Assembly: GCA_902803375.1 (NCBI GenBank)
Contig: CADCPN010000002.1
Location: 47,530-111,529 of the forward strand
DNA: 64,000 bases
Origin: an uncultured Erysipelotrichaceae bacterium
GTDB taxonomy: Bacteria; Bacillota_I; Bacilli_A; RFN20; CAG-826
Reading direction: 5' to 3'
In this document: one piece after another, positions 19,796 through 52,799 of the stretch
Layout of the letters: every line of letters begins with the position of its first letter
Numbering within the stretch: the stretch's first letter is position 1
The notes under the pieces: model-generated
Told to the model about the DNA's origin: nothing
The model's database searches: none
What the model saw: only the letters and a program-made list of their open reading frames with translations
Position numbers and translations under genes: made by a program

Positions 19796-22066
19796 CTACT
19801 TAATATCCTTAAGAGCCTGGTTGAGCTTATCTTCGGTGAAGAAGAGGCCTTTCTTCTGCTCTGGGGAAGCTTGCTTAAGCAACTCGAGCATATCGTTAAC
19901 GTCTTTCACCTTATTTTCGGCTTTGTAATTCGGGTTAGCGAGATTGGCACGGAGGACCTTATCGGTCTTGGCTAAGAGAGCGGAATCGACCGCTACGGCT
20001 TTCTTTTCCTTGGCGGGCTTTTTCTCCTCGGCCTTTTTCTTGGAGGCAGCCTTTTTGGCCGGGGCCTTTTTCTCCTCGGTCTTTGGGGCTTCTTCCTTAG
20101 CAGGCTTTTCCGCCTTAGCCGCTTTCGCGGTCTTGGTGGAAGTCTTCTTAGCGGAAGCCTTCTTGGTTGGCTTTTCCTCTTTGACTTTTACCGGCGCTTC
20201 TTCCTTCTTTGCCTTGGCCTTGGCTTTGGTTTTTGCCTTGGCTTTCTTCGGTTCAGGTTTGGCAGCGGCAACGTCTTTCTTTGCGGCAGACTTGGTAGCC
20301 TTCATAGCTTCGAAGCGAGCAGATCTTTCAATCTTGTCTTTCATCTCGGGTTCCGGGATCATCGCCACAAGAGTCGCACCTTGCGGAGTGGCAGTTCCAA
20401 CAACCTCGGTAATTGCCGGTTCAGAGGCTTTTTGCAAGGATTTTTGGTCTTTGGAAGACTTTCTGCGGGCATTTGCCTTCACGTTGGCAGCTTTCACGCT
20501 ATCGCGCTCACGCTGGACGAGGAGGGTCTGAGGAGTGGCCATGTTCGGAGCCTGTTCAGGCTTGGATTCCGGTTTGCCTTCGGGGTTGGATTCAGGCTTA
20601 GCGGCCTTCTTCTTTTTCTTCTTGGCGGGTTTGTCTTCTTCAACAGGAGCGGGAGAGAGTTCCGTTTTGGCTTCAGGGAGAGTTTCGACAGGCTTTTCGG
20701 CCGGTTTGGTCTCTTCGACTTTCTCTTCCACAGGCGCTTCTTCCTTCTTTGGGAGAGGTTTGGGCTCGCTCTTGGGTTTGGAAATAGTAACGACAGGGGT
20801 TTCAGAACTTATGGCTAGGTAAACGCGGTATCCGCCTTTACCCTTTTCGGCTTTGAAGCTATAGCCTTTCTTAGCAACGATCGCGACGTCTTCCTTCTCG
20901 AGGATGGAGGTTAGTTCCTCAAGGATGGATTTCTTGTCGGCGATAGTCGCATCGATCGGACCATGGACACCCGCGAAATACGGGACGGATGCATCACGGA
21001 ACATGACGCCATAATGGGCAGCGACCTGCTCTAATGCGTAGTCTAGGCCATGGCCGAAGCCATACCAAAGTTTTTTCGCTGGGGCGGCGGCCGGCGCCAA
21101 GAGGGTCGCAGGAGCGACTTCCTCTTTCTTCTCTTCGACCATCGAGGCAACAGGTTCTTCAACCTTTTTCGTCTCCACGGCCTTGGGAGCGGCCTCTTTC
21201 GGGGCCTCATCTTTCTGTTCAACCTTAGGCTGTTCTTTCTTCTGCACGGCCTTGGCGGGGGCAGCGACTAGTTTAGCGCGCTCCGCTTCAAGGGCAGGTA
21301 TGTCGTAATTTAGCTTCAAGCTAGCAAGGGCCTCGCCGGCATTGCGTAAAAGCGCAAGCTGGGCATCGATGTCCTTGATCTTTCTATTGACCAAATAATT
21401 GGAGTTGCCTAGGCTGGCGCGGAGACGGAAATCTCCGTTTTTGATCTCATCAAGAGTGGTGTCAGATTTCTTGATGTCTTTCTTCGCTCCGTTGTCATTG
21501 CGGGGAGCGTTCGCTTGCGAAGATAGCCTTTTATCTTCGTGGGAATTGTTCATTGGGCGACGATTTTCGCCTCTGTTGGGTATGAGATCACCATTGGTAA
21601 TGATCTTGAATACGGCAACGCGGTGGCCACGCTGAGAAGCTAATTCGTTTAGGTTTAGCAAATCAGTGGCTAACTTCTTGTCTTGAGTGATAACTAAGAT
21701 TTTGGAGTGCAGGCGGTCAGTCGAAACCCTTACATAAATCGCGTTATCTGCAAAATTCTCGTTTTTCTCTTTTAGAATTTTGATTGGTTTGTTCAGCCAA
21801 TGACGTCCTAGGATATGCAATGCGCGTTCAGCGGCAATTCGCTTATCCAAGTCCCCATCATTCTTAGAATGCTTGATCAATTCGTCTTCACATTGCTTGA
21901 GAATGTAAACGGGAACGCGGGGCTTGCAATACTTTTTGGCCCTTTCTAGAACATCCATCCACTCAGGGAAGTCCTCGTCCATCAATGAGCAAGTGTCCAC
22001 AAGAACATAGTTATAAGGTTGGATAACCTTAGCTAGGTCTGAGGCTTTTTTCTCATCTTTGTACAT
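19796..22066 (-). CDS. Mosaic protein with an N-terminal PIN-like nuclease domain, a central globular region, two copies of a ~30-aa repeat and a long Lys/Ala/Glu/Pro-rich histone-H1-like region.
   Basis: 756 aa. N-terminus YVLVDTCSLMDE...VITQDKKLATD has PIN-like acidic residues. Repeats are LRASLGNSNYLVNRKIKDIDAQLALLRNA and LRANLANPNYKAENKVKDVNDMLELLKQA. The tail contains KAKAKTKAKAKAKKEEAPVKVKEEKPTKKASAKK. Confidence 0.5.
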   Translation of the reverse strand: MYKDEKKASDLAKVIQPYNYVLVDTCSLMDEDFPEWMDVLERAKKYCKPRVPVYILKQCEDELIKHSKNDGDLDKRIAAERALHILGRHWLNKPIKILKEKNENFADNAIYVRVSTDRLHSKILVITQDKKLATDLLNLNELASQRGHRVAVFKIITNGDLIPNRGENRRPMNNSHEDKRLSSQANAPRNDNGAKKDIKKSDTTLDEIKNGDFRLRASLGNSNYLVNRKIKDIDAQLALLRNAGEALASLKLNYDIPALEAERAKLVAAPAKAVQKKEQPKVEQKDEAPKEAAPKAVETKKVEEPVASMVEEKKEEVAPATLLAPAAAPAKKLWYGFGHGLDYALEQVAAHYGVMFRDASVPYFAGVHGPIDATIADKKSILEELTSILEKEDVAIVAKKGYSFKAEKGKGGYRVYLAISSETPVVTISKPKSEPKPLPKKEEAPVEEKVEETKPAEKPVETLPEAKTELSPAPVEEDKPAKKKKKKAAKPESNPEGKPESKPEQAPNMATPQTLLVQRERDSVKAANVKANARRKSSKDQKSLQKASEPAITEVVGTATPQGATLVAMIPEPEMKDKIERSARFEAMKATKSAAKKDVAAAKPEPKKAKAKTKAKAKAKKEEAPVKVKEEKPTKKASAKKTSTKTAKAAKAEKPAKEEAPKTEEKKAPAKKAASKKKAEEKKPAKEKKAVAVDSALLAKTDKVLRANLANPNYKAENKVKDVNDMLELLKQASPEQKKGLFFTEDKLNQALKDIK

Positions 22067-33650: not shown

Positions 33651-33687
33651 GTCTACATTATATATGCATAAAGAAAGAACGCCCTAA

Positions 33688-33722
33688 GCAGGCGCTTAGA
33701 GGCGTTCCATTCTCTTTGGTTT
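33688..33722 (-). terminator. Terminator hairpin downstream of the DUF1508-repeat gene.
   Basis: gaacgcc-ctaagcaggcgcttag-aggcgttc. On the minus strand it is followed by tttctttatg. Confidence 0.35.
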
Positions 33723-33729
33723 GTCTCGC

Positions 33730-35334
33730 TTATTCGGCAGCTTTGGTGGTGTCGATGAGCTTGGCGTCTCCGATGAAGTTGCGAACAGAGGTGGCGGCAG
33801 AGATGGCGGAATCCTTAGACGGATAGGTTTCGCCCATGATCATGACGGCTCCGTTGTCGGAGAAGACCTTGAACTGATAGCGGTTCTGCTTATCTCTGGA
33901 GATGGTCATAGAGCCGGCAAGGACTTTGGCCTTGACCTTCTCGATGGCGCTGAGAACAGCGTTCTTGGAGGAATAGGTGGAGGTGACGAACAAGACAGCG
34001 CCGTTGGAGGCGATGAGCTGACCGATCCACTTCTTGGTCTCTTCATCGATAGAGACTTCGACTTTGCCGTTCTTGGTCGGGGTGACCGGGGCGAAGTCGA
34101 TGGTCCATTCGCGGACTTCTTCTTCCGGGATCTCGTCGAGGTCGACGATCTTCTTGGCATCATAGAAACGCTCAACGGAATTCAAAGCGTTCTGGGCGTT
34201 GACGGCGGTCGGATAGATTTCGCCGGCGACGACTAGGCGGGAATCGTTGGCCGTGAAGATACGGAACTGGCTGTAGCCGTTCTTATCGGTGATGATCTTG
34301 GTGGTTCCGCCCGGGACGTTCTTCTTTAGGGTGGCGATTCCAGCCTTGGCGCCCTCGCGGGTCTTATAGCCATTGGAGACGATGAGGATTTCACCGTTGT
34401 TGGCTTTTAGGCGATATTTGAAGAATCCAGCTTCCGGGAAGACTTCGTATTTGCCGACGACTTTGGACTCTTTGGCTTTGGCTTTCGGGGCAGCGGCGAC
34501 AGCTGGCTCTTCCTCGACAGGGGCAGACTCTTCAGCGGTTTCCGGGGCAGACTCTTCGGCGACGGGCTCTTCGGACTTTTCGTCGGCAACGGATTCTTCA
34601 GCCTTGCCTTCGGCCGGCTTCTCCTCTGGCGCTTCTTCCTTCGTTTCGGGCTCGATAGCCTTAGCAGCGGATTTCTTGGCTTTGGCTTTCTTGGCGGGTA
34701 GAGCCTTCATTTCTTCCTCAACAGGGGCAGCCTCTTCGGCGACAGGTTCTTCCTGCTTCGGTTCTTCCTTGACCGGCTCTTCGGGCTTTTCTTCCTTAGC
34801 AGGTTCTATAGCGACAACGGCTTCTTCCTGCTTCGGTTCTTCCTTGGTTTCTATAGCGACAGGTTCTTCGACTTTCTCTCCGGTGGCCGGTTCCTCGGCG
34901 ACGATAGTAGCTTCCTTCTTACCGGAAAGGCCAAAGACGATAGAAAGAATCATGGCGATTAGGCCAAGTAGACCTGCAACGCCAGCAAGGATGGCGTGAA
35001 CCTCTGATAGGCTGGCCTTAATGTCTCTGACCGGGGTCAAAGCCATAAGTCCACCGACGATGCCGATCAAGGCAAGGAATGCCGGAAGGACAAAGGCCGG
35101 CTTCTTCTTGGCGAGGACCAAAACGAGGGCCACGACGAAGAGAAGGGCTCCGCAGACGCAGCCAACGCTGAGCGTGAGGGCAAATTTTCCCTCACCCTGG
35201 AAAGCGAGTCTGGCGATGTTCTCGCCAGCAAAGGTGACGTTGAAGCCAACTAAGGCGAGTGCCACGACTGCAAGTGCGGCAGCCACGGCCGCGATTGCAG
35301 TCGTGCAGATGAATTTTCCTTTCGTGTTTTTCAT
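33730..35334 (-). CDS. Membrane-anchored protein with an N-terminal TM bundle, an acidic Pro/Glu/Lys/Ala-rich linker and four tandem DUF1508 (YegP/UPF0339) repeats.
   Basis: Four repeats: FKYRLKANNGEILIVSNGYKTREGAKAGIATLK; FRIFTANDSRLVVAGEIYPTAVNAQNALNSVERF; WIGQLIASNGAVLFVTSTYSSKNAVLSAIEKVK; YQFKVFSDNGAVMIMGETYPSKDSAISAATSVRNF. The start is set at MKNTKGK (35334), upstream of 3-4 TM helices. Confidence 0.55.
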   Translation of the reverse strand: MKNTKGKFICTTAIAAVAAALAVVALALVGFNVTFAGENIARLAFQGEGKFALTLSVGCVCGALLFVVALVLVLAKKKPAFVLPAFLALIGIVGGLMALTPVRDIKASLSEVHAILAGVAGLLGLIAMILSIVFGLSGKKEATIVAEEPATGEKVEEPVAIETKEEPKQEEAVVAIEPAKEEKPEEPVKEEPKQEEPVAEEAAPVEEEMKALPAKKAKAKKSAAKAIEPETKEEAPEEKPAEGKAEESVADEKSEEPVAEESAPETAEESAPVEEEPAVAAAPKAKAKESKVVGKYEVFPEAGFFKYRLKANNGEILIVSNGYKTREGAKAGIATLKKNVPGGTTKIITDKNGYSQFRIFTANDSRLVVAGEIYPTAVNAQNALNSVERFYDAKKIVDLDEIPEEEVREWTIDFAPVTPTKNGKVEVSIDEETKKWIGQLIASNGAVLFVTSTYSSKNAVLSAIEKVKAKVLAGSMTISRDKQNRYQFKVFSDNGAVMIMGETYPSKDSAISAATSVRNFIGDAKLIDTTKAAE

Positions 35335-35846
35335 AAAATTTCTCCCTTTTATGTTTTTTGGAAAACAACAGTCTATATTGTCCTCATTTTTTGGGTTTCT
35401 TACAAGAAGCAGGAATTTTTTACTCTTTCTCACATATAAAAGAGGTGATAGGTGCATCGATTTTTGTGTGAAAGCATTTTTTCCTGCCGGGAAAGTGAGT
35501 GGTTTTTGTATAGATACGCGTCTGTTTGAGCAACGACCACGTTCGCCATGAATGGGAAGAAAAAAGCACAGCGAATCTCTCCGCCATGCTTGATTTCGGC
35601 TTTAGCCAGAAGGGGTGATATGATTCCTCTTAGTCAAGAGGTGGGCGTCCATGGTCAGCCATCAGGATTCCCAAGCGGTTAGGTTGGGCATTCAACACCG
35701 GCGTCTCCAGTCAGGACTCCCTAGATATCAAAATGTAGGGGAACAATGTTCCTTCTGGCCCACTAGAATTGCTTCTAGCAAGACCATTATATATCCCGAA
35801 CTTCTCCAATAGGGAAGGGGGAAGGCTAAGATGAAACAAATGCTTA

Positions 35847-38800
35847 TTATTTGGACTTCTTAGAGTTGGATTTTGTAGCAGGAATCTTAGCTTTTTGCTC
35901 TTTTTCCCTAGCAATTTCCTCTTTCTCTTTTTCTGCCAAAGAGGCCTTCATTTTAGCGATGCGCTCTTCTGTTTTGCGCTTTTTCTCCTCTTCCGCTAAT
36001 TTTTTGCTTTCCTCTACTTTCTTGGCCTCTTTCTTTGCCTTCGCCTTCTTGGCGATGGAGACAATGAGCCAGACAAGGAGAACGAGAACGGCGCCACTAG
36101 CGGCTGCCAGGGTTAGCCATGCCCAAGTCGGAAGAATTTCCTTCTTGGCCATTTCGTAGCTGAAGCGTTCGCCGGTGGAATAGGTGAAGAGATAGCGGCC
36201 AGAATCATACTTGGAGTCGATCTTGGCGAGCTTAGCGCCGCTTCCTTTATAAAGAGTGGCGCCTTCTTCCATCTCGAGCTTCACGTTAACGTCTTTGACG
36301 CTAATCTCCTTGCCGTCGCAATAGAAGCGGAGGATATAGCCATCATAGGTTTCTTCCAAGATGACGGAGGTGCCTTTCTTGAAGAGGCCGGTGACGATGA
36401 CTTTGGAATCGGAAGTGAAGAGGCTGGTGGAAACCTCTTCGTAGCGGGCATAAACCTTCATGGAACTATCCACATCGCTAGGGAGATCCCAAGATGCGAA
36501 GTAGGAGGCCTTGTCGCCAGAGTAAATCATGTAGCCATCTTTTTCAGAGGCATAGAGGAAAGCCGGGGCTTCCTTGATTTTTTCGCCTGCGAATAAGCGG
36601 ACATAGGAGTTAAGGGAATAGGCATCCTTATTGAGGGAGCCGTCTTCCTTATAAAGATCGCCATTCTCCTCGCGGAATTCCATGAAGGAGACAAGATATG
36701 CGATTCGAGAGTTCTTCTTCGCGACCTCGCTCATCTTGTCCTTATGGGCGTCGAAGAGGGATTTGAAGGAGGATTCGTCGCCATAGGCGTCGTTATCCTT
36801 AACCTCTTCGAAGCAGCGGAGTTCTGGATAGGCTTTGCTATCTTCTCCTGCCTGATAGGCTTCGGCGTCGAAGTGGAGACTTAGATTCGGGGAAAGAGAA
36901 CCGTTGGAAGCAAGGGCTTCAGGAGCGAGGGCCTTGGCTGCGTCATCGTAGGAGGAATCATATTCCGCTTTATCGATGCCGCCTAAGGAACCGACGTAAT
37001 AGTTCCACTTGATGGAGGTGGAGAAAGAGTTGGTAGCGGAGACGAAGGTGGTAGCCTCGCCTAGGAGCGCGCCTTTATGCGCGGAGGCATCCTCATTGAG
37101 AATCTCAACGTTGCTGATGCAGGAGGTCATGTCGCCAGAGAGGGTGCCGGCGATGCCGCCGACATAATCTTCGCCGGAAACTTCGGCGGAGGAATAGGAA
37201 GAGGCGACGTTTAGCGCGACGCCGGCGATGCCGCCGACGTGCTTTTTGCCTTCGACTAGGCTAGAGGCAAGGCATTCTTTGATGCTGCCTTTGGCCATGG
37301 AGCCGGCGATGCCGCCGACGTTCTCGCCGACGCTGCCTTTAACGTGACCGTTGTTGAGGGAATGGGTAAGGGAAAGATCGGCAGAGCTATTGAAGCCGAT
37401 GATGCCGCCGACGTTGCTCTTGCCGAGGACTTCGCCATAGTTTGCGGAATAATCCACAACGGCTTTGGCACCGTCGTATTGCTCATCAAGCTCTTCTTCG
37501 TTTGGGAAATATTCCTTCATGAAGCCTTCATAGCCCATGGCGTTGAAATACTTCTCTAGATCGGCGTTATTCTGCTCAACTTTGCCATAGTAGCCGGAGA
37601 TGCCGCCGACATAGCGGTCTGCGGTGACGGAGGCATCGTTGGTCGCGAAATAGATCTCGCCGTTGCTGACGCCGGCGATGCCGCCGACGTAGATCGCGGA
37701 GTTAGATGAAGACACACTGGCCTTATTTTCAACATCGGAGATCTTGCCAGCGCTATATCCGGCGATACCGCCGAGGTTGACGAGGGTGATGTTCTGGTTG
37801 CTGGATTGGCCGAGCAGGGTACCTTCATTTTTGCTGGAGGTGATCTCGCCTAGGTTTAAGCCAGCGATGCCGCCGACGTCGTTGGCGCCGGAGGTAACCG
37901 CAGTAGAGGTAATCTTGGCAAGCTTGCCATAGCGGAACTGCTTGGTGCTGTCAGAAGTCTCATTGTCCTTATATTCGCTGCGGCCGTTCTCTGCGGCAAA
38001 GCCGACGTAACGTCTGCCTTTTAGGAGGCCGGAGATGGAACAGGAATAGACTTCGCCATAGTTATGGCCAATGACGCCGACATAGTCGTTATCAAGGCAA
38101 TCGAAGTGAGCGTTCTCGATGTTCAGCCTTTCAACGCAGCCATCTTTGGCAAGGGTATTGAAGATGTTATAGGAGGAGGAATTCTTGTCGAAATAGACGT
38201 TGCGGAAAGAATGGAATCCGGCATCAAGGGTGCCCTGGAAATAGGAAATCGGGGTAAGGGAGGTGCTGGAGAAATCGATGTCATTAGTAAGGCGGACGAT
38301 CTTTTTCTGGCTATAGGAGGCGGAGGCGTTGCACTTATCCGCGAATTCATTCCAGCCCTTCGCCGTTGAGATGAGAACCTCTTCGGTGTCTTTCTCCGGG
38401 TCGACTTTCGAGAACTTGTAGTGGCGGCCTAGGCCATAGACGTGTTCCTCGGAAAAGAGGAGAGTGTAGTCACCCGCATCCTCGATTTCGATGTGCTTGG
38501 TGCCGTTTTTGTATTTGTTCTCACCATCGGTGATGTAGAAAGACATGCCGCCCCGCGGGACGACGAGGTCATAACGATATTGCTTGTAGTCCTCTTCGTA
38601 ATACTCCTGAGATTCGGTGATTTCCTTCATCTCGTATTTGTCGTCGAGAAGGATGTCGCCGTTGTCGCCATAAAGATATCCGTTGAGGTCAGAGGCGATG
38701 TAGAAGCCATTATAGGAGGCGGTCTCTTCCTTATAGGTCACCGCGACGTTGTTATCTACGTCAGTGAAGGAGAACGTGTACCAGCCGCGGTCGGCGATGG

Positions 38801-39833
38801 TAAGGGTCATGGAGGCCTTTCCCTTTTTGTCCTCGTCTTCGCCTAGCCTCTTATAGCCGCCTTCTTCCTTCTCGTAGACGGAATAGTGGAGGACGAGGTC
38901 CTCTTCGCCGACATAAAAGGGTTCCGAGTTGTAGGTGGCAGGAGAGAGGACGGATTCATCGCGGGTTAGGGAATAACCCTTTTCGGTATTGGAGATGTCC
39001 GTAGGCTCAGCTTTGGTAAGAAGGTTTTCGTGAAAAGAGAGGAAATAGGCGGGGGCGTCTTCGATGTAGATGTGGTACTGGTAATCAGAACCGGTGCCGT
39101 AATTGCCATTCTCATCGAAGAGGAATTTCTGTAGGCCCACTTCCTTGCCAGGGGTGAAGAGGATGCGGTAGCTGCCGTCGGCGGAGATCACATGGGACTC
39201 CTTCTCATAGGCGACGACATCGTCCTTCTTCAAATCGATGGAAGAGATGTAATAGCAGTCGTAGGCGCTTTGATAAGGATTATAGGTGAGAGGCGTATCC
39301 GTTCCGTTCACGGAGATGGAGTACTCCTGCTTCTCGTAAAGCTTATAGGTGACGTGGCTAGAGGTGGCTTTGAAGCCATCCTTCTCCTCGTTATAGGTGG
39401 TCTTGGGATTGAATCTGACGGTATAGGTCAAAGCGGTCTTCTCATCGCTGAGGAAAGACTCGCCTTTGCTGTCGCCATAGCGGCTGCCATCAGAGCCCCC
39501 GACGTAGAAGGAGGTGCCGGTGGGGAGATAGACCTCATCCAGCTCATACTCGCCATCATCAAGAAGGGTCATCTTGTGGGAGCTGCGCTTGGCATAGTTC
39601 TCGGTGCTGATGCAGACGAAATAATCGTAGACGGGCGCTTCTTCTTCCTCAGCCGATGTATCCGGGCTTTCAGTATCGCTCGGGGTGTCCTCACCCTCAG
39701 CCGAGGTTCCTTCGGATGGAGTATCATCAGCTTTCACGGTTAATGGGCTAGAGGGCATCGCCGAGATGGCGAGGCCGCTTAGCAGCATTAAGGCGGAAAG
39801 AGTCATCAATTTTGAGGCTTTAGTCATTTTCAA
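35847..39833 (-). CDS. Giant (1328 aa) secreted/surface protein with a signal peptide, an acidic linker, Gly-rich repeats carrying a recurring VGGIAG core (GLUG-motif-like), a single C-terminal TM anchor and a ~65-aa Lys/Glu-rich cytoplasmic tail.
   Basis: Signal MKMTKASKLMTLSALMLLSGLAISAMP. Repeat cores VGGIAGLNLGEI, LGGIAGYSAGKI, VGGIAGVSNGEI, VGGISGYYGKV, VGGIIGFNSS, VGGIAGSMAKGS, VGGIAGVALN and VGGIAGTLSGD. Anchor WAWLTLAAASGAVLVLLVWLIVSIA followed by KKAKAKKEAKK.... Confidence 0.6.
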   Translation of the reverse strand: MKMTKASKLMTLSALMLLSGLAISAMPSSPLTVKADDTPSEGTSAEGEDTPSDTESPDTSAEEEEAPVYDYFVCISTENYAKRSSHKMTLLDDGEYELDEVYLPTGTSFYVGGSDGSRYGDSKGESFLSDEKTALTYTVRFNPKTTYNEEKDGFKATSSHVTYKLYEKQEYSISVNGTDTPLTYNPYQSAYDCYYISSIDLKKDDVVAYEKESHVISADGSYRILFTPGKEVGLQKFLFDENGNYGTGSDYQYHIYIEDAPAYFLSFHENLLTKAEPTDISNTEKGYSLTRDESVLSPATYNSEPFYVGEEDLVLHYSVYEKEEGGYKRLGEDEDKKGKASMTLTIADRGWYTFSFTDVDNNVAVTYKEETASYNGFYIASDLNGYLYGDNGDILLDDKYEMKEITESQEYYEEDYKQYRYDLVVPRGGMSFYITDGENKYKNGTKHIEIEDAGDYTLLFSEEHVYGLGRHYKFSKVDPEKDTEEVLISTAKGWNEFADKCNASASYSQKKIVRLTNDIDFSSTSLTPISYFQGTLDAGFHSFRNVYFDKNSSSYNIFNTLAKDGCVERLNIENAHFDCLDNDYVGVIGHNYGEVYSCSISGLLKGRRYVGFAAENGRSEYKDNETSDSTKQFRYGKLAKITSTAVTSGANDVGGIAGLNLGEITSSKNEGTLLGQSSNQNITLVNLGGIAGYSAGKISDVENKASVSSSNSAIYVGGIAGVSNGEIYFATNDASVTADRYVGGISGYYGKVEQNNADLEKYFNAMGYEGFMKEYFPNEEELDEQYDGAKAVVDYSANYGEVLGKSNVGGIIGFNSSADLSLTHSLNNGHVKGSVGENVGGIAGSMAKGSIKECLASSLVEGKKHVGGIAGVALNVASSYSSAEVSGEDYVGGIAGTLSGDMTSCISNVEILNEDASAHKGALLGEATTFVSATNSFSTSIKWNYYVGSLGGIDKAEYDSSYDDAAKALAPEALASNGSLSPNLSLHFDAEAYQAGEDSKAYPELRCFEEVKDNDAYGDESSFKSLFDAHKDKMSEVAKKNSRIAYLVSFMEFREENGDLYKEDGSLNKDAYSLNSYVRLFAGEKIKEAPAFLYASEKDGYMIYSGDKASYFASWDLPSDVDSSMKVYARYEEVSTSLFTSDSKVIVTGLFKKGTSVILEETYDGYILRFYCDGKEISVKDVNVKLEMEEGATLYKGSGAKLAKIDSKYDSGRYLFTYSTGERFSYEMAKKEILPTWAWLTLAAASGAVLVLLVWLIVSIAKKAKAKKEAKKVEESKKLAEEEKKRKTEERIAKMKASLAEKEKEEIAREKEQKAKIPATKSNSKKSK

Positions 39834-42195
39834 TATCCTCCTTTGGGGTATAGGTGATCATGAAGCGACCAGACTTGCGTTTTTTAAGGATCTCTCTGCC
39901 ACGGGAGAAGGCGTTCTGCTTCTCGGAGAGGGCCGTCTTGTCGATGAGGGGGTCCCATAGCAAGATGAGGGCCGGCATGACGAGAAGTGCGCTGGCGATG
40001 GAGATTAGGCAGCCACGGCATAGGCAGGAGCCAAGGGTGGCGATGAGCGGGTCACCGACGATGACGCCGATGAGGAAGCTTGCGGAGATAAGGATCGTGC
40101 CAGAGGTAAGAATGGTCGGGAAGCTTTGGTTGATGGAATCGATGATGGCCTGTTTCTTATCCGTATAGGTCTTGCGAAGCTCGGTGTAGCGGTTGGTGAT
40201 GACGATCGCGTAATCGATGGTCGCGCCCATCTGAATGGCCGAGACGATGAGGTTAACGAAGAAGTAACAGTTGATTCCGGTTAAGAAGAAATAGGTGAAG
40301 TTGATGAAGATGGCACCCTGGATGACGAGACATAGCGGGAAGGGGATGCCCCAGTTCTTGAAGGTGATGACCAAGACGACATAGACGAAGACGAGGGTGA
40401 GGATCGTAACGACGAGGTTATCCTTGGAGAACGTCTTGTTGAGGTCGTAGTCCGCCATCGCGTTGCCAGCGAAGATGACGTCGGGGTACTTGCCTTTGAT
40501 GGTCGTATTCAGACGTTTGATGAGAGCGAAGGTCTCAGGTGCTTCTTCCGCCGCGCCGATCTCGAAGACGACGCGGGAATAATTCGGGCCGATGAGCTGC
40601 TTTTCGGCATCGGTGATCTGACGTTTGATGTCGTTATAGGAGTCGATGGCATCAGGCTTATCGTTGAGGGAGGCGCGGATAAGCTCATCATGGGAGAAAG
40701 CAACGTCGCAGAGGTCGAGGAGCGAGACCTTATAGTCAAGCTTGTTGGCCTCATAGATCAAGACCTCCTCCGCGGAATCGCGGGTGTCCTCTTTGCAAAG
40801 CATGGCGTAGCCGGAGTAGATCTTGTCGCTGGCGGCATAATCGATATTGATGAAATCGGCGAACTGCTTGTAGTTGATCTTCTCGGGCAGGTAGTAGCTG
40901 ATGTCGTTTTTGGTAATCTGGGTATTGGCGATGCCCTGCGCCTTTCTCACAAGCGGCTCTTCGGAGACGGTATTGAGGATGTCTAATTGCTCAGCGTAAT
41001 CATTGCCAGGCATGACGATGACGAATTGAGTGCTGTAGCCGAAGACGTTGCTGATCTCCTTTTCGGCGATCATCGCGCTGGAGGGGCGCTCGGTATCGAT
41101 GGAGTTCTCCGCGTAGACGTAGGTGACTTTGTTAGAGGCATATAGGCAGACGCCAGCGAGGGCGATGTAGAGGAAGGGCATGACCCATTTGGTGTGGCCC
41201 GCGAATTTGCCGAGGAAGTTGACCTTTGGGACAAGGGATTTGTGCATCGTCTTGGAGATCGGCTTATCAAACATCAAAAGCAAGGCCGGCATGACGAAGA
41301 AGACGGAGACCATGCTCCAGACAATGGACTTGGCGAGGACGATGCCAAGGTCAGCGCCCAGCTTTAGCGACATGGTGCAGAGGGCAAGCATGCCGGAGAT
41401 GGTGGTAAGGGAGGAGCCGAAAATTTCAGGAATGGCTTTGCTAAGGGCATTCACCATGGCCGTTTCGGAGTCACGGGTGAACTGTTTTTCCTCCTGGAAG
41501 CGGTTTGCCATGATGATCGCGTAGTCGATGGCTAACGCCAGCTGAAGGATGACGCACACAGACTTTGAGACAAAGGATATCGTTCCTAGCCAATAGTTCG
41601 TACCCATATTGAACAAGGCGGCGATGCCGAATGTGGCCAGGAATACTGGAACCTCCATGAAGGATTCTGAGGTAATCAGCAAGACGACGATGATGATAAT
41701 GACGACGAACACCAAGACGAAGTTAATGGACTGCTGAAGGGTATCCGCGTAGTTATCCGTCAAATCGACGGAGACGTAATACTCATGGTCTGAGAGGAGG
41801 GTCTTGATGGTATTGAAGGCGTTGACCGTGATCGGATCGTCTTCCGTGCCTTCAAAGGTAACCGTGTATTTGGCGCAGGCATCCTTGTAATAGTCCGGGG
41901 TGTTATAGAAGTCGAACGGCTTCACGCCTTCGACGTCTTTGATCTTCTCATAGAGGTCGTGGGCCTCTTCATAGGAGATGTTCTTAACCATGAAGCTCGT
42001 AGAGCCGAAGGTATAGAACTCCTTGTCCATGATGTCGAGCGCGCGGCGGGTATCGGTGGTCTCATCAAGATAAGAGGAGATGGAATATTCGACTTTGGTC
42101 TGGGTCATACCATAAACGCAATAGCCGGCAAACCCAAGAAAAAACAGAAGGATGATCTTTCGGAATTTAACAACGAACTCAGCGATTTTTTTCAT
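39820..42195 (-). CDS. MMPL/RND-superfamily membrane transporter (YdfJ-like).
   Basis: 791 aa. Two 6-TM bundles (~aa 160-330 and 600-770), each preceded by a large extracytoplasmic loop. A 14-nt overlap with the downstream giant-protein gene indicates co-transcription. Confidence 0.6.
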   Translation of the reverse strand: MKKIAEFVVKFRKIILLFFLGFAGYCVYGMTQTKVEYSISSYLDETTDTRRALDIMDKEFYTFGSTSFMVKNISYEEAHDLYEKIKDVEGVKPFDFYNTPDYYKDACAKYTVTFEGTEDDPITVNAFNTIKTLLSDHEYYVSVDLTDNYADTLQQSINFVLVFVVIIIIVVLLITSESFMEVPVFLATFGIAALFNMGTNYWLGTISFVSKSVCVILQLALAIDYAIIMANRFQEEKQFTRDSETAMVNALSKAIPEIFGSSLTTISGMLALCTMSLKLGADLGIVLAKSIVWSMVSVFFVMPALLLMFDKPISKTMHKSLVPKVNFLGKFAGHTKWVMPFLYIALAGVCLYASNKVTYVYAENSIDTERPSSAMIAEKEISNVFGYSTQFVIVMPGNDYAEQLDILNTVSEEPLVRKAQGIANTQITKNDISYYLPEKINYKQFADFINIDYAASDKIYSGYAMLCKEDTRDSAEEVLIYEANKLDYKVSLLDLCDVAFSHDELIRASLNDKPDAIDSYNDIKRQITDAEKQLIGPNYSRVVFEIGAAEEAPETFALIKRLNTTIKGKYPDVIFAGNAMADYDLNKTFSKDNLVVTILTLVFVYVVLVITFKNWGIPFPLCLVIQGAIFINFTYFFLTGINCYFFVNLIVSAIQMGATIDYAIVITNRYTELRKTYTDKKQAIIDSINQSFPTILTSGTILISASFLIGVIVGDPLIATLGSCLCRGCLISIASALLVMPALILLWDPLIDKTALSEKQNAFSRGREILKKRKSGRFMITYTPKEDIEND

Positions 42196-42353
42196 TTTCT
42201 CCTCCTGTACGTTTATTGATATTGGTGTATTGTTATGTACACAGCTGTAATTGCTGCGTCATAACCATACACAACAAGACCGCATGGTCAACCAGCCAAG
42301 GGCTGAACATTATAACATGCTGTATAGTTATCAATATAGGAAGGAAATATTGT

Positions 42354-42947
42354 ATGAGTGAAACCAAAGACGACGTTCGCGTTAGAAGAACCAAGAAATC
42401 CCTGCGCCTAGGACTCATGGAATTATTGAAGGAAGAGCCCTTCGAGAAGATCTCCGTCAAAGACATCTGCGAGAGGACCATGATCAACCGCATGACCTTC
42501 TACGCGCATTACAAAGATAAGTATGACCTCTTAGACGATGCGATCAAAACCCTAGGGCAAGACATCTGGAAACAGTCGGTGAAGGAATCCGTCCTCGACT
42601 TCAGAGTCGATGGCCCGGCCGTCGCCGCGAAGGTCTCCGCCAACGTCATCGAGACCTGCTACAACCACCGTGATGAGATCTTCTCCATCACCAATTCCAA
42701 TAACGGGCTCGCCAGCCAGGTCCTCATGACCTCCATCACCGAGCTTGTCACCAAGCTATTCGACTCCATCGAGCAGCATTACCACCTCCGTTATGACAAG
42801 GGCTTCATGGTCAGCTTCCTCGTCGGCGGATATTCCGGTATTGTCATGCATTGCCTCGAGCAGAAGACTTTCGACAAAGCAGTCGTTGAAAGAACCTTCT
42901 ACCAGGTTGTCAATGATGCCCTCAAAGGCGGCGTCGTCACCAAATAA
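42354..42947 (+). CDS. TetR/AcrR-family transcriptional regulator, divergent from the MMPL gene.
   Basis: HTH region RRTKKSLRLGLMELLKEEPFEKISVKDICERTMINRMTFYAHYKDK. The start at 42354 follows AGGAAGGAAAT. The track start at 42216 is rejected. Confidence 0.7.
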   Translation: MSETKDDVRVRRTKKSLRLGLMELLKEEPFEKISVKDICERTMINRMTFYAHYKDKYDLLDDAIKTLGQDIWKQSVKESVLDFRVDGPAVAAKVSANVIETCYNHRDEIFSITNSNNGLASQVLMTSITELVTKLFDSIEQHYHLRYDKGFMVSFLVGGYSGIVMHCLEQKTFDKAVVERTFYQVVNDALKGGVVTK

Positions 42948-52214: not shown

Positions 52215-52799
52215 GGACGATTAATCATAGTGCTTAAATAAAAAAAGTCACCTGATTGTCTATGTTTTCCTTTGCCCTCCCCTACATGAAGCCTATACTA
52301 CGTCCAGGGAAATGGTGTTCTTCCCGGCTACTAGCAAAACCGCCTTTCTGGGCTGATGGCGTCTGTCTCTGTTTTTCGCCTAGGCAGACGGCGGGCCGGA
52401 AAGGATTTTTCATAGGAGCTTCTTCCTTTGCTTAGGGATCATTCTTCTCGTTGGAGGGCTATTGGGGTTCCTGCTAAAAAGATTCGCCTGGCGTCGCTCC
52501 TAGGCTAACTTGCCTTAGGCATATTCCTCAGCTGCTTCGGATTCAGTAACCAGGAATTGCTCGGCATACCCTCTCAAAGAAGAAAGATCGCTTTAGGAGC
52601 GATTCTTTTGAAGGCGGGCTTCTCGACCTTGGCAACCGCCTGGGCAACGAGGCGATCATCGCCTCTGGCAATATCGTCTTATCCGTGGCCGTCTTAGCCA
52701 TCCTGCTCACCGCAGCGATATCCGCGGTGATTGTGGATCTAACTATACGAAGCTAACAAGGAAAGAAATTGCTCCCATTTCAGAGGAAAAAACGGCAAA

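What the first reader, a model, noticed from the sequence alone, without database searches (positions are those of the whole stretch)
33730..35334. Membrane-anchored protein with four tandem DUF1508 (YegP) repeats behind an acidic Pro/Glu-rich stalk.
DUF1508/UPF0339 normally occurs as small soluble proteins with one or two copies and no known function. Here four copies are strung behind a multi-TM N-terminal anchor and a ~170-aa EEPV/KEEP-rich stalk. This implies surface or periplasm-facing display of a repeat array, an architecture that is not described. The gene has its own terminator hairpin and lies upstream of a 390-bp ORF-free region.
Basis: partly seen in the sequence, partly recalled or inferred. 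Interest (0 to 1): 0.6.

Follow-up and report, generated by a model that had tools for sequence, protein, structure and literature searches.

The report
Membrane-tethered cytoplasmic four-repeat YegP protein
This gene encodes a protein with a four-helix membrane anchor, a floppy acidic linker and four copies of the uncharacterised YegP/DUF1508 domain; the domains most likely face the cell interior rather than the surface, and the protein belongs to a conserved but unstudied family in gut and environmental Mycoplasma-like bacteria.

Summary
The CDS at 33730-35334 (-) encodes 534 aa: four TM helices, a ~152-aa disordered acidic Pro/Glu/Ala/Lys linker, and four DUF1508 repeats (PF07411, 88.5 bits). 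The repeats are predicted to fold as two YegP-like pseudo-dimers (TM-score 0.80 to PDB 2K49 and 2K8E).

The "surface display" interpretation is not supported.
- The positive-inside rule gives N-in/C-in in 31 of 31 family representatives.
- Orthologues in Izemoplasmatales and Acholeplasmatales carry the same array with no TM segment and no signal peptide. They have an N-terminal MCWFF-KKKK motif instead.
- The same anchor carries other small cargo domains (DUF2188, an unnamed ~115-aa domain) that also occur as stand-alone proteins. The stand-alone domain X proteins inspected have no signal peptide.

The architecture is not unique. More than 400 homologues exist in RF39/Enteromonas-like and related reduced Bacilli, named only "DUF1508 domain-containing" or "YegP family". 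No paper I found describes the architecture or a function for the domain.

My best reading is a cytoplasm-facing membrane tether. Its conserved, basic head binds an unknown ligand, possibly single-stranded nucleic acid.

Side finding: the "390-bp ORF-free region" lies 5' of the gene and holds a conserved 6S-RNA-like element. Interest is moderate.

The parts
33730..35334 (-). CDS of the 534-aa protein (stop codon 33730-33732)
   Evidence: ORF list. The start is supported by the SD sequence, by aligned homologue N-termini and by gene calls on near-identical contigs.
35341..35346 (-). Shine-Dalgarno GGGAGA, 6 nt before the ATG
   Evidence: Read directly from the sequence.
34921..35334 (-). N-terminal four-helix membrane anchor (aa 1-138), predicted N-in/C-in
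   Evidence: Hydropathy and K/R counts. The AF2 model has helices 2-29, 50-76, 79-98 and 107-136 at pLDDT about 85-94. The anchor is poorly conserved: 29% mean column identity and no invariant column.
34465..34920 (-). Disordered acidic Pro/Glu/Ala/Lys-rich linker (aa 139-290)
   Evidence: pI 4.4, net charge -24. pLDDT below 50 over most of the stretch. Length varies across the family from about 80 to 310 aa. A 93%-identical homologue has a 25-aa in-frame deletion here.
34141..34464 (-). YegP-like module 1: DUF1508 repeats R1 and R2 (aa 291-398), pI 9.7
   Evidence: Pfam. PDB profile hit to 2K49, E 1.4e-11. Foldseek TM-score 0.80 normalised to the target. R1 is the most conserved repeat, with 27 of 50 positions at 90% identity or more.
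34069..34140 (-). Inter-module segment (aa 399-422) with the conserved LDEIPExExREW motif
   Evidence: E406, R408, E409 and W410 are invariant among the 32 4TM-form representatives and less conserved across all three forms. The AF2 model has short strands here.
33733..34068 (-). YegP-like module 2: DUF1508 repeats R3 and R4 (aa 423-534), pI 9.2
   Evidence: Pfam. AF2 pLDDT about 90. R1 resembles R3 (31% identity) and R2 resembles R4 (33%), which points to duplication of a two-repeat unit.
33678..33701 (-). Terminator-like hairpin followed by a T-run, 29 nt after the stop codon
   Evidence: Terminator scan and the sequence itself.

Best explanation
The protein is a cytoplasm-facing membrane tether with three parts.

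1. A fast-evolving four-helix anchor (N-in/C-in) fixes it in the cell membrane.
2. A ~150-aa intrinsically disordered, net-acidic linker acts as a flexible spacer. Its contour length is about 55 nm and its likely reach about 10-15 nm (inferred).
3. A highly conserved, basic head made of two YegP-type pseudo-dimers (4 x DUF1508) is the working part.

The head most likely binds a cytoplasmic macromolecule and so holds or senses it near the inner face of the membrane. My favoured ligand is single-stranded nucleic acid. Repeat 1 would be the main contact surface.

Shown by tool results: the architecture, the fold assignment, strong purifying selection on the head, interchangeable anchors and interchangeable cargo.
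Inferred: the topology (from the positive-inside rule and comparative evidence), the tethering role, and the identity of the ligand.
For: Architecture and fold
- PF07411 scores 88.5 bits with 4 stretches.
- A profile of the array hits UPF0339 structures 2K49, 2K8E, 2K7I, 6Q2Z and 3BID.
- The AF2 model of the array has pLDDT 89 and pTM 0.83. Each half superposes on 2K49 and 2K8E at TM 0.80, rmsd 1.9-2.7 A.

Topology
- K+R per loop in the window protein is 3/2/3/2/2.
- In 31 of 31 representatives the N-terminus, the TM2-3 loop and the post-TM4 flank hold more K/R than loops 1 and 3. Mean K+R is 3.35 in 9.7 aa and 3.19 in 8 aa, against 2.29 in 37 aa and 1.1 in 15 aa.

Comparative evidence
- In the Izemoplasmatales/Acholeplasmatales-type loci L027-L044, L047 and L048 the same array sits behind an N-terminal MC[WFL]F plus polybasic motif, with no TM segment and no signal peptide. 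Anaeroplasmataceae-type loci have no N-terminal extension at all.
- The anchor profile finds only 50 proteins among 1.84 billion. Besides the 4 x DUF1508 array (some copies with an added Zn-ribbon or domain X), the cargoes seen are DUF2188, an unnamed domain X, or no cargo at all.
- Domain X also occurs as small stand-alone proteins without a signal peptide.

The head is the selected part
- 53 columns are invariant in the array and none in the anchor.
- The array is identical, or differs by one residue, among near-identical strains, while the linker carries a 25-aa indel.

Ligand hints
- Module pI is 9.2-9.7.
- R1 matches the C-terminal appendage of a TrpRS model, NF008923 positions 341-403.
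- The literature likens tandem DUF1508 to the sPC4/Whirly ss-nucleic-acid-binding fold and places it in sensor positions of Menshen NsnA (PMC12065111).
- yegP-like genes sit behind the DNA-damage regulators capK/capS (PMC13373217).
Against: - There is no experimental topology, and no dedicated TM-topology predictor was available. The call rests on hydropathy, charge bias and comparative logic.
- Pro/Glu-rich spacers are also typical of Gram-positive surface proteins.
- A DUF1508 lipoprotein has been reported in Mycoplasma hominis (PMC11096450), so the domain can be extracellular.
- No conserved gene partner exists across clades.
- The acidic character of the linker is not conserved: it is basic or mixed in Izemoplasmatales.
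Confidence: 0.6

Rival explanations
1. Extracellular display. The anchor holds an acidic stalk that projects the DUF1508 array from the cell surface. This could matter in wall-less or wall-reduced Bacilli, where the array might bind host or environmental ligands.
For: - Pro/Glu-rich stalks are common in Gram-positive surface proteins (established knowledge).
- A DUF1508 lipoprotein is reported in M. hominis (PMC11096450).
- The upstream neighbour (35847-39833) is a large, apparently surface-exposed protein with a signal peptide and a C-terminal TM segment.
Against: - An even number of TM helices with a K/R-rich N-terminus and K/R-rich TM2-3 loop puts the C-terminus inside, in 31 of 31 representatives. 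Cleavage of TM1 as a signal peptide would not change this.
- Orthologues with no TM segment or signal peptide exist.
- One linker contains a Zn-ribbon.
- Domain X, one of the alternative cargoes, also occurs as stand-alone proteins without a signal peptide.
- There is no lipobox and no LPXTG motif (sequence).
Confidence: 0.12
2. Membrane or lipid sensor. The basic YegP heads bind the anionic inner leaflet itself (PG or cardiolipin). The protein would then report or buffer membrane state, with the acidic linker competing for the head.
For: - Head pI is 9.1-9.7 against linker pI 4.4.
- All forms except the Anaeroplasmataceae-type appear membrane-associated, by 4 TM helices or by an MCWFF-polybasic motif.
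- In Izemoplasmatales the gene sits directly upstream of cardiolipin synthase: PLDc_2 E 8e-39 for the L032 example, and the same gene cluster follows the array gene in 18 loci.
Against: - Soluble YegP-family proteins are not known membrane binders.
- The cls neighbourhood is clade-specific.
- Anaeroplasmataceae-type homologues have no membrane-targeting element.
Confidence: 0.1
3. A general stress protein, or a component of phage defence or damage sensing. The tethered YegP head would act as a sensor or decoy in a stress or anti-phage pathway, as suggested for other DUF1508 fusions.
For: - E. coli YegP is described as stress-induced (bioRxiv 10.1101/2024.11.21.623966).
- DUF1508 occurs in Menshen NsnA sensor positions and in Bub ubiquitin-like proteins.
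- yegP-like genes follow capK/capS in 57 cases.
- Domain X, fused to the array in P0050 and P0133, matches the PADLOC candidate system PDC-S18 at E 8e-8.
Against: - PADLOC finds nothing for the window protein or its neighbours.
- The neighbourhood is housekeeping: RarA, the Opp transporter, rplM/rpsI and metG.
- The gene is a conserved single-copy core-like gene across several orders rather than a patchy island gene.
Confidence: 0.15

Closest known systems
E. coli YegP and Shewanella SO_3888 (UPF0339/DUF1508, PDB 2K8E and 2K49)
   Same: Each half of the array is a tandem pair of beta-beta-beta-alpha repeats forming a pseudo-dimer. The sequence profile gives E 1e-11 to 3e-10 and structural TM-score is 0.80. 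Function is unknown in both cases.
   Different: YegP is a soluble protein of about 110 aa with one pseudo-dimer. This protein has two pseudo-dimers joined by a conserved IPExExREW segment, plus a 150-aa disordered linker and a 4-TM anchor.
HVO_2922 (single-domain UPF0339, PDB 6Q2Z; NCBIfam NF041908)
   Same: The same domain. The NCBIfam hit scores 48.6 bits over R1.
   Different: The score is below the equivalog cut-off of 90. HVO_2922 is a 60-aa archaeal homodimer with neither anchor nor linker.
DUF1508 fusions: TrpRS C-terminal appendage, Menshen NsnA N-terminal sensor, DUF1508-Ubl of Bub operons
   Same: DUF1508 is used as an appended module on a larger protein, usually as a tandem pair.
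   Different: Those fusions attach the domain to an enzyme or effector. Here the only partner is a membrane anchor and a spacer, so localisation appears to be the point of the fusion.
Sibling 4TM-linker-cargo proteins (DUF2188 cargo, e.g. P0122, P0160, L012 6024-7055; domain X cargo, e.g. P0163, P0149)
   Same: A homologous anchor (E down to 1e-19 with the anchor profile), an acidic or coiled-coil spacer, and a small C-terminal domain. The DUF2188 paralogue lies in tandem with the DUF1508 gene in L012, L020 and L022.
   Different: The cargo domain differs. These proteins are also uncharacterised.

Membership tests
DUF1508 / UPF0339 (YegP) domain family, Pfam PF07411 | Match to the PF07411 HMM above the gathering score | tested here: met
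   88.5 bits against a cut-off of 22, with 4 stretches. Scanned alone, three repeats pass and R2 scores 21.5 bits.
DUF1508 / UPF0339 (YegP) domain family, Pfam PF07411 | A beta-beta-beta-alpha repeat fold, with tandem repeats packing as a pseudo-dimer as in 2K8E and 2K49 | tested here: met
   AF2 secondary structure and pLDDT 89. Foldseek TM-score normalised to the target is 0.80, rmsd 1.9-2.7 A.
DUF1508 / UPF0339 (YegP) domain family, Pfam PF07411 | The typical small soluble one- or two-copy protein | tested here: not met
   The protein is 534 aa with 4 TM helices, a 152-aa linker and four copies. This is a typical form rather than a defining feature: it is an architectural variant, not a failure of domain membership.
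HVO_2922 family (NCBIfam NF041908, equivalog) | Whole-protein score at or above the curated cut-off of 90 bits | tested here: not met
   48.6 bits.
sPC4/Whirly ss-nucleic-acid-binding superfamily (proposed relative of tandem DUF1508, PMC12065111) | Structural superposition on PC4 or Whirly folds | tested here: inconclusive
sPC4/Whirly ss-nucleic-acid-binding superfamily (proposed relative of tandem DUF1508, PMC12065111) | Binding of single-stranded DNA or RNA | not testable with these tools
   Needs EMSA or fluorescence anisotropy with the purified array.
Gram-positive surface-display proteins (signal peptide, stalk, wall or membrane anchor) | A cleavable signal peptide or lipobox with an extracellular passenger, or an LPXTG sorting signal | tested here: not met
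   There is no lipobox and no LPXTG motif (sequence). Charge bias places the passenger inside. Anchorless orthologues without a signal peptide exist.
4TM-linker-cargo tether family (unnamed; defined here) | Homologous N-terminal four-helix anchor followed by a low-complexity spacer and a small C-terminal domain | tested here: met
   The anchor profile finds 50 proteins at E<=1e-3 among 1.84 billion. Their cargoes were identified.

The most novel reading that the evidence does not exclude
Reduced or wall-less Bacilli (RF39, Acholeplasmatales, Izemoplasmatales) may share a previously unrecognised system of cytoplasmic membrane tethers. The system would consist of interchangeable anchors (4 TM helices, or an MCWFF-polybasic motif), a disordered spacer, and interchangeable small heads (2 x YegP pseudo-dimer, DUF2188, domain X). 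Its role would be to attach nucleic acid (nucleoid, RNA or invading DNA) to the membrane. That would give the enigmatic YegP/DUF1508 domain its first function, as a nucleic-acid-binding module.
Probability: 0.15. Interest if true: 0.7.

Novelty: new variant of a known kind. Interest (0 to 1): 0.4.

Why it matters
DUF1508/YegP is a widespread, structurally solved domain found in bacteria, archaea and phages. It had no known function as recently as 2026 (PMC13373217).

- A lineage in which the domain is strongly conserved, duplicated into a double module and kept at the membrane by at least two unrelated means says that location matters for its function.
- This gives a concrete experimental handle: the conserved R1 surface, tethered versus free forms, and tests of ligand binding.
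- The same anchor carries DUF2188 and an unnamed domain. These three orphan domains are therefore linked, and a result for one may transfer to the others.

The practical impact is modest until a ligand is found, and the host organisms are uncultured.

Tried and rejected
- Longer ORF start at 35457 (575 aa): rejected. There is no homologue support, while the SD sequence and aligned N-termini favour 35334.
- Operon partners: none of the window neighbours (RarA, DUF3899, Opp, the 1328-aa protein, MMPL) is found next to the gene in 49 loci from other species. RarA-DUF3899-Opp synteny holds only in close relatives. Clade-specific neighbours (TldD/PmbA, an uncharacterised 578-aa protein, udk, cls and rmuC, rplM/rpsI) are not shared across clades.
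- Naming the anchor: Pfam gives only sub-threshold noise (DUF6223, 7TMR-DISM).
- Naming domain X: there is no Pfam, PHROG or PDB sequence match. All 191 database relatives are either unnamed or called "hypothetical protein".
- Defence-system membership: PADLOC finds nothing for the window protein.
- DNA tandem repeats as the origin of the linker: only weak, short arrays are present.
- The Foldseek hit to the Anabaena contractile-injection baseplate chain 7B5H_AD (E 3.7e-5) has rmsd 20 A. I treated it as a local repeat resemblance only.

Full report
**1. What is in the sequence**

Translation most likely starts at ATG 35334, giving 534 aa.
- A GGGAGA Shine-Dalgarno sits 6 nt upstream.
- Homologue N-termini align with MKNTKGKF.
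- Gene calls on 97%-identical contigs give 534 aa.

Pfam gives DUF1508 (PF07411) at 88.5 bits with four stretches. Scanned separately, the repeats score E 1e-12, 2e-4, 7.5e-6 and 8.7e-6.

Hydropathy finds four TM segments. The AF2 full-length model has four long helices (2-29, 50-76, 79-98, 107-136) at high confidence. Residues 137-290 are predicted disordered, with pLDDT below 50 over most of the stretch.

The linker (aa 139-290) has pI 4.4, with 47 D/E, 23 K/R, 18 P and 31 A. A terminator-like hairpin follows the stop codon at 33701-33678. There are two small corrections: the linker is about 152 aa rather than 170, and the ORF-free region lies 5' of the gene.

**2. The head is two YegP units**

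A profile of the C-terminal 250 aa hits the solved UPF0339 proteins 2K49, 2K8E, 2K7I, 6Q2Z and 3BID. The AF2 model of the array is confident (pLDDT 89.1, pTM 0.83), and each repeat is beta-beta-beta-alpha. Foldseek superposes each half on the tandem proteins 2K49 and 2K8E with TM 0.80 and rmsd 1.9-2.7 A.

R1 resembles R3 (31% identity) and R2 resembles R4 (33%). The array therefore arose by duplication of a two-repeat unit. Published work states that tandem DUF1508 forms a pseudo-dimer and single copies form homodimers (bioRxiv 10.1101/2024.11.21.623966).

The two modules are basic, with pI 9.7 and 9.2. They are joined by a segment carrying the motif LDEIPExExREW. This motif is invariant among the 4TM-form representatives and less conserved across all three forms.

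**3. Which side of the membrane?**

The evidence points the other way.

(a) Charge bias. K/R cluster at the N-terminus (MKNTKGK), in the short TM2-TM3 loop (KKK) and after TM4 (KK). Across 31 representatives below 80% identity that have four detectable TM segments, all 31 have more K/R on these three segments than in loops 1 and 3. Mean values are 3.35 K/R in 9.7 aa and 3.19 in 8 aa, against 2.29 in 37 aa and 1.1 in 15 aa. By the positive-inside rule this gives N-in/C-in. Cleavage of TM1 as a signal peptide would not change the orientation of the C-terminus.

(b) Anchorless orthologues. In Izemoplasmatales/Acholeplasmatales-type loci (L027-L044, L047, L048) the orthologous four-repeat array has no TM segment and no signal peptide. 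The protein instead starts with a conserved MC[W/L/F]F(F) motif and a polybasic run, followed by a basic or mixed linker. Anaeroplasmataceae-type copies (L045, L046) have no N-terminal extension and carry a K/T-rich C-terminal tail.

(c) Anchor relatives. An exhaustive HMM search with the anchor alone finds only 50 proteins among 1.84 billion.
- P0130 has a Zn-ribbon inside its linker.
- P0133 has a duplicated (8-TM) anchor.
- Other members carry DUF2188 or an unnamed ~115-aa "domain X" in place of the array.
- Domain X also occurs as small stand-alone proteins of 125-240 aa. The six copies I inspected have no signal peptide.

Everything attached to this anchor looks like a cytoplasmic domain. 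The topology still needs an experiment. A DUF1508 lipoprotein in M. hominis (PMC11096450) shows the domain is not intrinsically confined to the cytoplasm.

**4. Distribution and selection**

More than 400 homologues with the same layout exist, 450-570 aa long. The few that carry names are called "DUF1508 domain-containing protein" or "YegP family protein", from Bacilli, "Erysipelotrichaceae" and Candidatus Enteromonas MAGs.

Species-representative genomes give 49 loci. All are from Mycoplasma-like, reduced Bacilli: RF39/Enteromonas, Acholeplasmatales, Izemoplasmatales and Anaeroplasmataceae. [quoted passage not shown]

The head is under strong constraint. It has 53 invariant columns, and R1 is the most conserved repeat, with 27 of 50 positions at 90% identity or more across all three forms. 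The anchor has no invariant column. Linker length ranges from about 80 to 310 aa.

Within the window's own species group the array is essentially invariant. It is identical in the 97%-identical homologue P0001 and differs by one residue in P0002. P0002 also has a 25-aa in-frame linker deletion between KEEPKQEE repeats.

**5. Genomic context**

In the window, reading along the minus strand, the order is:
- MMPL transporter
- 1328-aa protein
- 6S-like RNA
- this gene
- RarA/MgsA
- DUF3899
- Opp transporter

. The downstream part is kept in a 58%-identical relative but not in other clades.

Other clades have their own neighbourhoods:
- TldD/PmbA, then the gene, then an uncharacterised 578-aa protein.
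- A HAD protein and a 634-aa membrane protein, then the gene, then udk. In three loci of this type a DUF2188 paralogue lies in tandem just upstream of the gene.
- metG-rplM-rpsI, then the gene, then cls and rmuC.

There is no universal partner and no defence-island signature. The gene behaves as a stand-alone, core-like gene.

**6. Mechanism**

The best-supported reading is a cytoplasmic membrane tether. The anchor (or the MCWFF-polybasic motif) provides location, the disordered linker provides reach, and the conserved basic double-YegP head binds something.

The nature of the ligand is inferred only. The hints for single-stranded nucleic acid are:
- the basic pI of the modules;
- conserved Lys, Arg and aromatic residues on the R1 strands;
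- the match of R1 to the C-terminal appendage of a TrpRS model;
- the published likeness of tandem DUF1508 to sPC4/Whirly folds, and its occurrence in sensor positions of Menshen NsnA (PMC12065111);
- the association of yegP-like genes with the DNA-damage regulators capK/capS (PMC13373217).

The rivals are extracellular display, binding of anionic lipid by the basic head, and a stress or defence sensor role. All three are listed with tests that would refute them.

**7. Comparison with what is known, and novelty**

Domain membership in DUF1508/UPF0339 is met by sequence and by fold. The protein is not an equivalog of HVO_2922 (48.6 bits against a cut-off of 90), and it is not a typical small soluble YegP.

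Literature searches returned five papers for DUF1508, 46 for YegP and 11 for UPF0339 or HVO_2922. In none of the papers I opened, nor in the listed titles and abstracts, was a function or this membrane-anchored architecture described. One preprint notes that "extended arrays" exist.

I rate it a new variant of a known, functionally orphan kind. It is already present in databases under generic names. Interest is moderate (0.4). The most useful new points are:
- the corrected topology;
- the three ways the same head is deployed;
- the anchor-sharing link between DUF1508, DUF2188 and an unnamed domain.

**8. Side finding**

The "390-bp ORF-free region" (35458-35846) contains a full-length but sub-threshold match to 6S/SsrS RNA at 35599-35764 (-). 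It scores 26.9 bits against a gathering score of 46.4, with E about 0.001. A terminator-like hairpin follows at 35591-35564.

The same element lies upstream of the orthologue in L051, scoring 26.3 bits. It is about 95% identical over roughly 170 nt, although the adjacent proteins are only 58% identical. This is good evidence for a conserved non-coding RNA gene, most likely a divergent 6S RNA.

Noticed in passing
window 35564-35764 (-): Likely divergent 6S/SsrS RNA gene in the ORF-free region 5' of the DUF1508 gene. There is a full-length RF00013 match at 35599-35764: 26.9 bits, below the gathering score of 46.4, E about 0.001. A terminator-like hairpin follows at 35591-35564. The same element sits upstream of the orthologue in L051 (7580-7744, 26.3 bits). 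It is about 95% identical over roughly 170 nt, while the neighbouring proteins are only 58% identical.
   Followed up: partly
proteins P0138, P0144, P0146, P0148, P0149, P0152, P0155, P0161, P0163; inserted in P0050 and P0133; alignment A4: An unnamed ~115-aa domain ("domain X", motif RIPF..RL..ADDELK..YNELK...LSYG.KSR.S..GDTFRLH.K.Y.KI..AGK.LKLY.ALDPKDY.DS.IPV). It sits on the same 4TM anchor, and in P0050 and P0133 it is fused in front of the DUF1508 array. It has no Pfam, PHROG or PDB sequence match. It has 191 database relatives, mostly stand-alone proteins of 125-240 aa that are either unnamed or called "hypothetical protein". It gives a weak hit to PADLOC candidate system PDC-S18 (E 8e-8).
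   Followed up: partly
L012 6024-7055, L020 3788-4954, L022 6814-7938 (directly upstream of the DUF1508 gene): Tandem paralogues with the same 4TM anchor and acidic linker, but with a C-terminal DUF2188 (PF09954, E 1e-12 to 1e-14) in place of the DUF1508 array. This is cargo swapping on one anchor.
   Followed up: yes
L027-L044, L047 and L048, N-termini of the orthologues: A conserved N-terminal motif M-C-[W/L/F]-F-(F) followed by a run of 4-6 Lys/Arg replaces the TM anchor in Izemoplasmatales/Acholeplasmatales-type orthologues. It looks like a peripheral membrane-targeting signal acting from the cytoplasmic side. This has not been tested.
   Followed up: partly
window 19874-22066 (-): Homologue (56% identity over the N-terminal 160 aa) of an uncharacterised 578-aa protein with no Pfam match and a Lys-rich low-complexity C-terminal part. 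In RF39-type loci L001-L011 that protein lies immediately downstream of the DUF1508 gene. In the window it lies about 11.5 kb further downstream, beyond RarA, DUF3899 and the Opp operon.
   Followed up: no
window 35847-39833 (-) and 39820-42195 (-): A 1328-aa protein with an N-terminal signal peptide, many GGIAG-type repeats, a C-terminal TM segment and a Lys/Glu-rich tail, and no Pfam match. Its start overlaps the end of an MMPL-family transporter gene. A TetR regulator is encoded divergently at 42216-42947.
   Followed up: no
window 52299-52372 (+): Fluoride riboswitch (RF01734): 40.6 bits, above the gathering score.
   Followed up: no
model m38af91373d40 against PDB 7B5H chain AD: Foldseek reports a local match (E 3.7e-5, probability 1.0, but rmsd 20 A) between the four-repeat array and a 1109-aa baseplate chain of the Anabaena contractile injection system. 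That protein may contain DUF1508-like beta-beta-beta-alpha repeats.
   Followed up: no
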